DNA of 64,000 nt from Octopus vulgaris (Eukaryota), in assembly GCA_951406725.2 (NCBI GenBank), contig OX597829.1, positions 2,418,001-2,482,000 on the forward strand, read 5' to 3'. How positions within the stretch are numbered: the stretch's first letter is position 1; each line of letters starts with the position of its first letter. Below the pieces are notes generated by a model that was given only the letters and a program-made list of their open reading frames with translations, made no database searches and was not told the origin of the DNA. A program made the translations under genes and the position numbers. Below are positions 36,301-39,482 of the stretch, one piece after another.

Positions 36301-37323
36301 ATGTCACTAAGCATTTTGCCCAGCATGCTGCATATTCTGGCTATTCCAGCATGCCACAAATTCTGCCTTAACCCTTTTGATACCAAACCGCCTGAAACCG
36401 CCTCTGGCTCTGTAATACAAATGTCTTGTTCTCAAAAAATCAGTATTAAAATCTTCCACCAAACCTTAGTCACATTTTATATTCCTAACACTAGCTTAAT
36501 GACAACTAAGTTGTTTTACTAAATTCTTTGTTATATCTAAAATTAATTGAAAGAAACACAGAGTATCTCAACAGAAATATGGTAATGAAAGGGTTAATAA
36601 TAATATTAAATAATAAAAATAATAACAAAACTGAAGACAGAAGCATTTAATCCTGTGGGAGAACTCTCCGAGCACAGTGAAGTAAATTGCACAAACTTTC
36701 TTCCTGCTTTCCAGTGTAGAAGATAGATGCCAACTAGAGGAATTACCTTCAAAGAAATTCATTTCTTGTCATCAACTTCAAGATGATTACCAACAATGTT
36801 ATCCCAATGAATGGTAAGCCATGGCACACTGGAATCAAGGTGAATAGATGAGTGCTGTGTGCAAGAAGTAAGGAGAGGAAAGTCTGATGTCCCTCAGCCA
36901 GACATCCTACCAACTATCCCATCTCTGCTACCATCAAGACAGTAGCACGGATGGAATGGAATAGATATATTCTTAGCAGAAAAATGGATAGATAAGAGGG
37001 GAAACTATTTGAAGTATATTCAAGTTTGGACTAGCCTTGAACATTTATCTCTGCATATACTTCATATTTTGGATAGGCACATACATGTGCCAGAGTGTCT
37101 TTGAAGAATATATCCAAAATACATGACAGAGGGTTTAGAAAGAGGCAGAGAACAACTTCAGATCAAGTGATGAAGGTTTAATTCTATGATGTTGCATTTT
37201 ATGACATAGATTAAAAAAAATGGATTATGTTGACTGGCAATTGGCAGTACAGAAGACTGGACCTCACCTTCCTCATGAAGGCATGGCAAATTCAAATGAT
37301 ACTTACATAAAGGTGATAATATT

Positions 37324-37504
37324 TATCTATTTCTTTATTACCCACAGGGGGCTAAACAGAGAGGGGACAAACAAGGACAGACAAAGGGATTAAGTCGATT
37401 ACATCAACCCCAGTGCGAAACTGGTACTTTATTTATCGACCCCGAAAGGATGAAAGGCAAAGTCGACCTCGAAAGATACTTGTCAGAAGTGGGATTCGAA
37501 CCCA
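37324..37504 (-). mobile_element. Chimeric retrocopy: tRNA-Leu 3' fragment + trailer + 5'-truncated SINE B
   Basis: 37504-37481 reads TGGGTTCGAATCCCACTTCTGACA, followed by AGTATCTTTC and then the SINE body. TSD aaaggtgataatatt at 37309-37323 and 37504-37518. Confidence 0.75.
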
Positions 37505-39482
37505 AAGGTGATAATATTGGAGGCTGATGGCATGTCTGCTCCCAAATACACATCTGCAACCCTGTCCCTCAACTCTTTAACATTCAGATTATTCCATCAA
37601 ATATGATACCTTTTTCTTTACATTGTTTTGAACTGATCATGCCTGATCTTGTAGCATTAAGATTTTGATGATGTGATCATTTATTTTTTAGAATGACATT
37701 GTAGGGTAGGTGTGAGAAGCCAGATCTGGCTGGTTTGAACATAAAACAGGTAGAAAAAATTGGGCGCTGAATATGGCTGGTTTAACCCTTTAGCACTTAA
37801 TCGGGCCATATCCTGCCTAAATATTCTGCTTGCTTTATGTTCAAACCGGGTAGATTTGGTGTCTGGCATCTACCCCACAACGTCAATTTGAACATCAACA
37901 ATCACATCGGGGAGATTTCAAGGCTACTGGACAATGCAGGATAAATTCAAAACAATGTGAATAAATAAGCATTACATTTGATTGAGTGATTTGAATGCTT
38001 AAGGGTCAGGCACCACTCATTTCCGTACCACCCATGTGGCCCCTGTAATACTGGATCTACCCTTATTCAGCCTATACTAACACCATCTTTTAACACTCTA
38101 CCCTGGCCTGTGACAATGCCCATGTGTAAGGGGTCACATAGGGCATGTCTGTAATCAATACATACAATCCTAACACTCCTGTGACCTGTCATTATTATTT
38201 ACTTGTCCCCAGAGACCCTGTTCTTGCCATCTGTCACTCTTACTATGATACTAACACCCTGCCGTTGCCTGTCATTCGCACCTCAAACTCACCTTACACC
38301 AGTTATGCTTTTCTGCAATTATATTCATGATTGATTGACCCCACCCCTAAGAGAGTAGTAATGCCAAATAAGAACTAACACAGAATGTGTCAACCCATCC
38401 CACCCATGTCAGCACAGAGGTGTTTATAAAATCCTTTCTACTAAAGGTACAAGGCCTGAAATTTTGTGGGAGGGGACTAGTTAATTACCTTGATCCCTAG
38501 TATGTAACTGGTATTTATTGACCCCACAAGAGTGAAATTCCATGGAATTTGAAACCAGAACATAAAATTAGACAAATTGTCATTTTGCTTGGCTCATATA
38601 ACGATGATAATAATGATGCTGTGTGTGTACATGTGTATCTGTGTTATCATTTTGCTCATTAAATTTTCAGAGCATTCCTTCCACTTTTAATTAATTATCA
38701 CTTCAGTAAAGACAACTATTCATAAAACATGCTGGGCAAAGTTCAGAGAGCTTCTAACTCTGTTGGAAACTAAGGGCCTCTCCTTCAGAGTGAAAAACAG
38801 ACGAGGCCTGTTGATAGGCCAAGTTACTGAAGTGTTTGTGCAGAGATAACATCTCTTATAGATGTGCTGTTTTAAAACAATAAACAACAGAGTGAGATGA
38901 AAATTGTTGTTGGCACGCTGGGCCAAATCCTTATCTATGATACATACTCGGCTATTTTAATATAACGCTGCCTCATTTGCATTTACTGGATTTTCTTTCA
39001 CCCAGACTGCCATTTACAACACCTGTGGGGTGTTTTATTTACTGTTTCCGTGGCTGGTTGTGAGTACACAACATTGAAAAGTCCCATGGAAACCTTTAAT
39101 GAAATTTGCAAATCTCACAGGCTGCTGCTGCTGTTAGAATAATTTTTGCCTTCCCCCTTCATTTATTGTGTTTTTAATGCAGCAAGTCCATAAGAAATGT
39201 TATGTCAGGATGAGTAACACTGTAACTAGCCTATAAACAGTGTATATACATTAAGGATAAATAACACTGTAACTAGCCTATAAACAGTGTATATGCAGAT
39301 GTGTGTGTGTTGTATACATCAGTGCTTCTCAAACTATCTGATGTGGCATACCGGTAGTTTTTTTTCCACTGTGCCAGGGACCGGTAATATTTCTTAGTAA
39401 TATTAATTTATACAGCAAACAATATATATAATGAATATAATAAAAGTTGACAAGTTTATCTTTTCTATCTTATATTTATTCT

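What the first reader, a model, noticed from the sequence alone, without database searches (positions are those of the whole stretch)
37309..37518. Pre-tRNA-Leu 3' end captured on a truncated SINE (second Pol III RNA chimera)
Seen: 24 nt matching the T-arm/acceptor end of eukaryotic tRNA-Leu (TGGGTTCGAATCCCACTTCTGACA), with no CCA but a trailer-like AGTATCTTT. It is fused to a 5'-truncated SINE B within a 15-bp TSD. Inference: the RT jumped from the SINE RNA to the U-rich 3' end of an unprocessed pre-tRNA. With the U6 chimera about 2 kb away, this suggests the RT that mobilises this SINE routinely captures Pol III transcripts, a possible route to SINE head-swapping.
Basis: partly seen in the sequence, partly recalled or inferred. 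Interest (0 to 1): 0.72.

Follow-up and report, generated by a model that had tools for sequence, protein, structure and literature searches.

The report
Unprocessed tRNAs captured by jumping SINEs
The tail end of an unfinished transfer RNA and part of a mobile SINE element sit here as one insertion, likely because the copying enzyme jumped from one RNA to the other; the genome holds well over a hundred such tRNA fusions, and the leucine ones likely preserve in DNA the mark of a chemical modification on the RNA that was copied.

Summary
Observation confirmed. A 180-bp minus-strand insert (23 nt of tRNA-Leu positions 51-73, a 9-nt trailer without CCA, the last 148 nt of SINE B) lies inside a perfect 15-bp duplication; a related species has the empty site. 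It is not an LTR primer site. No gene carries the exact trailer; seven other fusions carry it with one change and the nearest genes differ by two. The locus is a dead one-off, but one of many: 64 of 76 dispersed tRNA-Leu(CAA/CAG) copies, most dispersed tRNA-Glu copies, 21 of 23 sampled non-gene U6 copies and 5S copies are joined through a U-rich end to SINEs or LINE tails; 0 of 44 U1 ends are. Best reading: reverse-transcriptase template jump (0.78). New here: 12 of 30 Leu fusions start at 58/59, and read-through copies are enriched for changes at A58, a likely m1A58 footprint; it is weak or absent in Glu, Ala and Leu-TAA. Head swapping is not shown: no fusion has multiplied. The scan reported pre-tRNA/SINE fusions before in two other genomes; U6/SINE chimeras are in print.

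The parts
37309..37323 (.). target-site duplication, copy at the element's 3' end (15 bp)
   Evidence: empty site with one copy in organism E
37324..37471 (-). 3' 148 nt of SINE B (positions 92-240 of a 241-nt copy), 5'-truncated
   Evidence: 7 of 148 bases differ from the majority of 24 other copies
37472..37480 (-). pre-tRNA 3' trailer, 9 nt, ending in three T (Pol III oligo-U end, inferred)
   Evidence: one substitution from the trailer of L050-L054, L056, L058; two from gene L002/L057
37481..37503 (-). tRNA-Leu(CAA/CAG) positions 51-73 (T arm, acceptor 3' strand, discriminator); no CCA; A58 unchanged
37504..37518 (.). target-site duplication, copy at the element's 5' end (15 bp); base 37504 also fits tRNA position 50
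39718..39812 (-). neighbouring chimera: U6 snRNA copy lacking about its first 10 nt, ending in T5
   Evidence: Rfam U6 89.3 bits
39483..39717 (-). neighbouring chimera: full-length SINE B joined at its 5' end to the U6 copy
39466..39482 (.). 17-bp target-site duplication of the U6 chimera, 3' copy (5' copy at 39813-39829)

Best explanation
This is a single insertion that joins the 3' end of an unprocessed tRNA-Leu (T arm, acceptor strand, trailer) to the 3' part of SINE B, likely made when a LINE reverse transcriptase copying SINE B RNA at the target site jumped onto the oligo-U 3' end of a nuclear pre-tRNA. Steps: (1) target nick, priming on the SINE tail, 148 nt copied (insertion and duplication shown; enzyme inferred); (2) jump to the 3'-UUU end of a pre-tRNA-Leu(CAA), probably of the L002 gene lineage, without microhomology, so likely through non-templated addition (inferred from R2 biochemistry); (3) 32 nt copied through an unchanged A58, joined to the target by a 1-nt T microhomology (sequence shown); (4) one later or copying substitution in the trailer (inferred). 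The copy has no A box and is dead. The same process has left fusions of many pre-tRNAs, U6, 5S and SINE RNAs with several SINEs and LINE-like tails (shown). In the Leu(CAA/CAG) set the enzyme often stopped at, or misread, position 58, most likely because m1A58 was already on the trailer-bearing precursor (pattern shown, cause inferred, about 0.65).
For: Empty site lacks both parts. Seven sibling fusions carry the near-identical trailer on five partner types. 64 of 76 non-gene, non-PBS Leu copies align to a partner within 40 nt (66 hits less 2 microsatellite artefacts), against 2 of 41 loci first labelled genes, one of which proved a fusion. Six spliced CAA copies keep a trailer, three of them matching trailers of intron-bearing genes (L012, L147, L155): RNA template. 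No read-through copy ends in CCA (0 of 48). 48 hits of B box + trailer + TTT + partner start across at least Glu, Asp, Gly, Leu, Ser, His, Arg. U6: 339 exact 3' ends, 21 of 23 non-gene copies among the first 30 fused to a retroelement; Pol II U1: 0 of 44. 19 of 22 SINE A fusions are at the SINE's 5' end, which should carry a triphosphate, and pre-tRNA ends in 3'-OH (both recalled), whereas RtcB needs a cyclic phosphate and a 5'-OH (PMC6789731). Serial fusions exist (L144, L198, L205, L281). SINE B fusions: duplication score 10 or more in 6 of 17 against 7 of 272 shuffled flank pairs (one of the six is an AT run, two are the window's own). Position 58: 12 of 30 trailer-anchored Leu fusions start at 58/59 against 3 of 63 dispersed Glu copies at 59-61 (p 5e-5); A58 is changed in 6 of 22 non-gene single-mismatch copies (p 3e-4) and 8 of 49 read-through copies against 0 of 60 Glu.
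Against: No gene with the exact trailer is in the assembly. The window's junction is inside the SINE, which suits ligation to a cleaved RNA as well. The partner LINE was not identified and no enzyme was tested. Only 1 of 29 truncated Leu copies (the window's) has a clean, non-repetitive duplication, and 1 of 30, so single-event origin is not proven for most tail and SINE A fusions. Many copies starting at 59 lie in (AT)n, where the first two bases could belong to the flank. The 58/59 pattern is weak in Asn (4 truncated at 59-61, one A58T) and nearly absent in Ala (1 truncated of 20 hits) and Leu-TAA (1-2 truncated, about 8 read-through, no A58 change). The U1 motif holds three CpGs, so old U1 copies drop out of an exact search sooner than U6 copies.
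Confidence: 0.78

Rival explanations
1. The pre-tRNA was ligated to a cleaved SINE B RNA (RtcB type) and the fused RNA was then retrotransposed.
For: Shown for U6/L1 in human cells (PMC6789731, abstract and model section). The window junction is internal and has no microhomology. RtcB is the tRNA-splicing ligase (recalled).
Against: RtcB needs a 2',3'-cyclic phosphate and a 5'-OH; pre-tRNA oligo-U ends are 3'-OH (listing, PMC5737608 abstract). Most sibling fusions are at the very 5' end of full-length SINEs (19 of 22 SINE A; most SINE B).
Confidence: 0.12
2. Two events or DNA filler: SINE B inserted alone and the 32 nt were added separately, copied from tRNA-gene DNA during repair or inserted later.
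For: Short 5' filler is common at retrotransposon junctions (recalled). For the fusions without clear duplications an insertion next to an older tRNA copy cannot be excluded one by one.
Against: One duplication encloses both parts and the empty site lacks both; the piece ends exactly in the terminator T run; siblings are spliced or carry 5' leaders; genes themselves are not followed by partners.
Confidence: 0.05
3. A 5'-truncated daughter of an active tRNA-Leu-headed SINE B subfamily, i.e. head swapping already accomplished.
For: Eight full-length or near full-length Leu fusions lack a T4 terminator before the partner (L010, L024, L030, L156, L158, L161, L166, L167) and could be read through; template switch is the proposed route to new SINE heads (PMC5786205 passage).
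Against: The window junction is unique at one mismatch; trailers and partners combine freely; the only repeated Leu junction with shared flanks is a sixfold segmental duplication (L132-L137).
Confidence: 0.03
4. The piece is the primer-binding site of an LTR retrotransposon.
For: Such a family exists: 40 of 60 loci fetched are 18-nt tRNA-Leu primer sites with CCA.
Against: The window piece lacks CCA, runs 8-9 nt beyond position 59, has a trailer and lacks that family's flanks.
Confidence: 0.01
5. On the sibling pattern only: the pile-up at position 59 comes from AT microhomology with (AT)n targets or from nuclease cleavage in the T loop, not from a stop at m1A58.
For: Leu has A59-T60 and about half of the copies starting at 59 have alternating AT/AC flanks; Leu-TAA, Ala and Glu show little pile-up.
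Against: Glu and Ala have AT at 58-59, yet 0 of 63 dispersed Glu copies start at 58; the other AT in the Leu 3' exon has no start among the 18 truncated copies; microhomology and cleavage do not explain substitutions at A58 in read-through copies.
Confidence: 0.3

Closest known systems
U6/SINE and U6/L2, L1, RTE chimeric retrocopies of platypus and Anolis (Doucet et al. 2015, PMC4476161; passages read)
   Same: Sense small RNA 5' of a SINE or short LINE piece, often 5'-truncated, short or no duplications with some partners, ascribed to template switching by stringent LINEs.
   Different: Here the passengers are also pre-tRNAs with leader, intron and trailer, 5S and SINE RNAs, in an invertebrate (octopus-like by recall and by earlier scan notes), with a position-58 signature.
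U6/L1 chimeras by RtcB ligation (Moldovan et al. 2019, PMC6789731; abstract and section 18 read)
   Same: Oligo-U end of a Pol III RNA joined to a variably truncated retroelement.
   Different: Pre-tRNA ends lack the cyclic phosphate and most partners here are joined at their native 5' end.
Human tRNA/LINE-1 chimeras (bioRxiv 10.1101/2025.02.02.635956; passages read; supplements closed)
   Same: tRNA sequence and retroelement in one duplication.
   Different: 21 loci, mostly 5' halves in antisense, ascribed to twin priming; here sense, 3' ends, with trailers, far more numerous.
Tailless tRNA retropseudogenes (Schmitz 2004 as cited in PMC4476161; Noll et al. 2015, PMC5322556, term search only)
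   Same: Retrocopies that may keep precursor sequence.
   Different: Those are primed directly on the tRNA and lack any tail; these carry a retroelement 3' end.
R2 reverse-transcriptase template jumping (Pimentel et al. 2022, PMC8857657, abstract; PMC11581009, passages)
   Same: End-to-end, homology-free, serial jumps that need non-templated addition.
   Different: Shown in vitro for R2; the partner enzyme here is unidentified and untested.

Membership tests
small-RNA/non-LTR chimeric retrocopy (U6/LINE, U6/SINE type) | small RNA 5' of, and in the same sense as, a retroelement 3' end | tested here: met
small-RNA/non-LTR chimeric retrocopy (U6/LINE, U6/SINE type) | one target-site duplication encloses both parts; empty site lacks both | tested here: met
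small-RNA/non-LTR chimeric retrocopy (U6/LINE, U6/SINE type) | passenger ends at its RNA 3' end (oligo-U) | tested here: met
   trailer ends in TTT; siblings end in the gene's T run; exact source gene not found
small-RNA/non-LTR chimeric retrocopy (U6/LINE, U6/SINE type) | joined by RT template switch rather than ligation | not testable with these tools
   only indirect arguments from junction positions
LTR-retrotransposon primer-binding site | complement of the mature tRNA 3' end with CCA, about 18 nt, next to an LTR end | tested here: not met
   no CCA, 23-24 nt, trailer; true primer sites in 40 of 60 loci look different
tRNA-headed SINE family (new head) | A and B boxes in the head | tested here: not met
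   only positions 51-73 present
tRNA-headed SINE family (new head) | several copies share the junction in different flanks | tested here: not met
   junction unique at up to one mismatch
tailless retropseudogene | 3'-truncated small RNA with no tail | tested here: not met
   3' end complete and followed by SINE
human tRNA/L1 chimeras | tRNA half, mostly antisense to the element | tested here: not met
   sense 3' piece with trailer
m1A58 reverse-transcription signature (sibling set) | cDNA ends at 59 and mismatches at 58 | tested here: met
   Leu(CAA/CAG); weak or absent in Asn, Ala, Leu-TAA, Glu
m1A58 reverse-transcription signature (sibling set) | signature lost after demethylation or TRMT6/61A loss | not testable with these tools
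   needs RNA from the animal

The most novel reading that the evidence does not exclude
The genome holds a heritable fossil library of nascent Pol III RNAs, written by LINE reverse transcriptases that jump onto oligo-U ends. It records which tRNA genes were active in the germ line, the order of processing (leader and trailer still present, intron in or out) and the modification state: stops and misreads at A58 mark m1A58 on Leu precursors, mostly after splicing (A58 changed in 6 of 15 intronless against 1 of 30 intron-bearing copies, pooled sets), and its near absence on Glu precursors. Terminator-less fusions among them are ready-made candidate SINEs.
Probability: 0.6. Interest if true: 0.72.

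Novelty: new variant of a known kind. Interest (0 to 1): 0.55.

Why it matters
The locus alone is a dead chimera of a known kind. The set matters more: it shows the proposed first step of SINE birth (tRNA joined to a LINE-recognised tail) happening many times in one genome, gives a natural test of template jumping against RNA ligation because pre-tRNA ends and SINE 5' ends do not suit RtcB, and, if the A58 reading holds, shows an RNA modification leaving a readable trace in germ-line DNA, so that precursor processing could be studied from assemblies alone. It also warns that many dispersed 'tRNA genes' here are retrocopies.

Tried and rejected
Exact trailer search: only the window and one decayed copy, L031. 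PBS reading rejected. General duplication search in tail and SINE A fusions mostly failed: 1 of 29 clean, 1 of 30, where the low-complexity filter also zeroed short matches; first attempts were uninformative. Rfam U1 search scored only 42 of 31,184 candidates, mostly genes, so it was replaced by a pattern count. Tests of the position-59 peak in Ala, Leu-TAA and Glu were largely negative. The attempt to read the ancestral trailer base in related species failed: no contig of organisms B, C or D covered the 5' junction and the raw-read run laid nothing; these holes prove nothing. L060, L062 and L063 were dropped as chance or SINE-internal matches, L061 as partnerless; L011, first labelled a gene, was moved to the fusions. 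Of one search's 194 hits only the first 100 were listed; 60 new ones were fetched and 5 more, and G at position 58 was excluded by that pattern. Counts were made by eye from the listings. Paper searches returned nothing, 51 only PMC4476161, 70 and 74 nothing on pre-tRNA/SINE fusions or modification footprints; Noll 2015 has no passage on modification. The partner LINE was not sought.

Full report
The observation. On the minus strand a 180-bp insert (37503 to 37324) lies between two exact copies of a 15-mer that occurs nowhere else in the window. The SINE part differs from the majority of 24 other copies at 7 of 148 positions. A contig from the same species confirms the 5' junction without a difference (possibly the source sample). 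In organism E a single contig joins 37308 to 37504, so the empty site has one copy of the 15-mer and neither tRNA piece nor SINE; contigs of organisms B and C run from the flank into the SINE tail. This is one insertion event that postdates the split from E. The U6 chimera nearby is real: Rfam U6, full-length SINE B and a 17-bp duplication.

Source of the tRNA piece. The exact end-plus-trailer is found only here and, in part, in decayed L031. With one mismatch allowed, 14 places appear: seven carry the trailer with C for T at its third base and are fused to five kinds of partner (L050-L054, L056, L058), one more (L059) carries the trailer of gene L002/L057, and that gene, an intron-bearing tRNA-Leu(CAA), has the same body as L050 and L052 and a trailer two substitutions from the window's. 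Two genes of the C29 cluster are also two substitutions away. The primer-site alternative was tested: 40 of 60 fetched loci are 18-nt primer sites with CCA in a shared LTR-type context, unlike the window piece.

The window copy is one of many. Of 76 non-gene, non-primer-site Leu(CAA/CAG) copies fetched, 66 align to a partner within 40 nt, 64 after removing two microsatellite artefacts: about 32 to short stem-loop tails, 22 to SINE A, and the rest to RTE-like 3' ends (label recalled), SINEs B, C, D or U6; five partner references came from the loci themselves and match trivially; 2 of 41 gene-labelled loci hit, one of them a real fusion. None of 48 read-through copies ends in CCA. Many keep the 5' leader and the intron; six CAA copies are spliced yet keep a trailer, which shows an RNA template. 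A generic B-box pattern gives 48 fusions from many tRNA families; 63 of 98 tRNA-Glu hits are dispersed and most show a partner. U6 has 339 exact 3' ends; of the first 30, 7 are genes and 21 are fused to retroelements. Of 29 tail copies preceded by five T, 21 could be assigned to U6, tRNA, 5S or SINE 3' ends (5S and a diverged tRNA-like RNA confirmed by Rfam). The Pol II RNA U1 shows 0 of 44 such fusions, with the caveat that its CpG-rich motif decays faster. SINE B itself has captured pre-tRNA-Glu, -Ala and -Asn; 6 of 17 SINE B fusions score 10 or more for a duplication against 7 of 272 shuffled pairs, though one is an AT run and two are the window's. For other partners duplications were mostly not found (1 of 29; 1 of 30), as reported for platypus U6/L2 chimeras (PMC4476161, passages). 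About 10 long SINE B copies in this window extrapolate crudely to 4e5 in the genome, so capture is common in number and rare per insertion.

How it most likely works. A LINE reverse transcriptase primes on the SINE tail at the nicked target, stops or reaches the 5' end, and jumps to the free oligo-U end of a nuclear Pol III transcript. Such homology-free jumps need non-templated addition in R2 (PMC8857657, abstract; PMC11581009, passages); an added A would pair with a terminal U (inference). Ligation by RtcB, shown for U6/L1, needs a cyclic phosphate and a 5'-OH (PMC6789731, abstract and section 18). Pre-tRNAs end in UUU-OH (PMC5737608, abstract start in listing), and 19 of 22 SINE A fusions are at the SINE's 5' end, expected to be a triphosphate (recalled). 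Serial fusions (L144, L198, L205, L281) fit repeated jumps. The window's own junction is internal and free of microhomology, so ligation stays possible for it (0.12). The partner LINE was not identified.

A footprint at position 58. In two searches anchored on the trailer, 30 independent fusions split into 12 near full length, 12 starting at 58/59, 4 at 63-64, one near 40 and the window at 50/51 (six hits were one duplicated event; p 2e-10 against uniform breaks). Among 22 non-gene copies with one mismatch in the 23-mer, 6 differ at A58 (4 T, 1 C, 1 G; p 3e-4). Pooled over searches with different filters, A58 is changed in 6 of 15 intronless and 1 of 30 intron-bearing copies (p 0.003; suggestive only). 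Stops at 59 and misreads at 58 are the reverse-transcription signature of m1A58, which is present on human pre-tRNAs with trailer, leader and intron (bioRxiv 10.64898/2026.05.17.725798, passages; the stop signature is recalled). Against: about half of the copies starting at 59 sit in alternating AT/AC flanks; Asn shows 4 truncations at 59-61 and one A58T, Ala one truncation at 58 or earlier among 20 hits, Leu-TAA one or two against about eight read-through copies, Glu 3 of 63 with no A58 change in 60. Glu also counts against pure microhomology, since its AT at 58-59 has no start. I put the m1A58 reading at about 0.65, for Leu(CAA/CAG) only.

Head swapping. The window copy has no A box. Most fusions carry four or more T before the partner and would terminate; eight Leu fusions do not and many Glu fusions have short T runs, so candidate read-through units exist, and L223 joins another SINE's head to full SINE B. 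No junction was found multiplied in different flanks within these searches. The route is proposed in print (PMC5786205, abstract and passages; PMC4476161) and remains a possibility here.

What is known. U6/SINE and U6/LINE chimeras are described in platypus and Anolis (PMC4476161); human tRNA/L1 chimeras are few, halves and antisense (bioRxiv 2025.02.02.635956, passages; its supplements are closed and could hold sense cases); tripartite chimeras are described in a fungus (PMC2104539, listing only). Searches found no paper on sense pre-tRNA-plus-trailer fusions as a class or on modification footprints in retrocopies; the library lacks most subscription papers. This scan has noted pre-tRNA/SINE fusions in a shark and a camel-like genome and a U6 three-part chimera in this genome; none held the m1A58 terms. 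Verdict: real, a new variant of a known kind; interest 0.55.

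Noticed in passing
L064-L122, L168-L172 (G000, many contigs): An abundant LTR-type element family with an 18-nt tRNA-Leu primer site including CCA (40 of 60 loci); counted only.
   Followed up: partly
L047 minus 165-267; copies L025, L030, L037, L087, L099, L161, L162, L165, L167: A tRNA-Leu-like gene with a deletion across the anticodon arm lies in the C29 cluster; about nine captured copies of this type suggest that such genes are transcribed.
   Followed up: partly
L144 1500-1700; L198 1375-1560; L205 1460-1850; L281 244-370: Serial fusions: tRNA-Leu piece + U6 + SINE A; tRNA-like head + U6 + U6; tRNA-Glu + SINE B + RTE-like tail; tRNA-Leu(TAA) + U6 5' part.
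   Followed up: partly
L223 1440-1780: Head of another SINE ending in T5 joined to a full-length SINE B: a SINE-head capture.
   Followed up: partly
L274 360-430, L275 318-387: A diverged tRNA-like RNA (Rfam tRNA 32-35 bits) with trailer captured on a tail; the two loci share flanks and are one duplicated event.
   Followed up: partly
L279, L280 and three similar hits: 5'-truncated U1 copies that keep the 3' box and run into (ATT)n: possibly pre-U1 retrocopies or a U1-derived element.
   Followed up: no
L001, L029, L042, L006 and about 30 others: The short tail partners (about 50 nt) nearly all begin 2-4 nt before a GC-rich stem-loop, suggesting a hot spot for jumping just after the recognised hairpin.
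   Followed up: no
L201 1400-1520: U6 copy in inverted arrangement (antisense 5' part followed by sense 3' end).
   Followed up: no
L046 (G000:C29:8.819-8.829 Mb): Cluster of intron-bearing tRNA-Leu(CAA) genes with tandem duplicated 3' halves about 110 bp apart.
   Followed up: no
window 54001-60000: Strong opposite GC and AT skews in adjacent 2-kb bins, probably inverted simple-repeat tracts.
   Followed up: no
window 3374-3770 and 19231-19634: SINE B copies followed by a second copy of their own 3' part starting at position 52.
   Followed up: no
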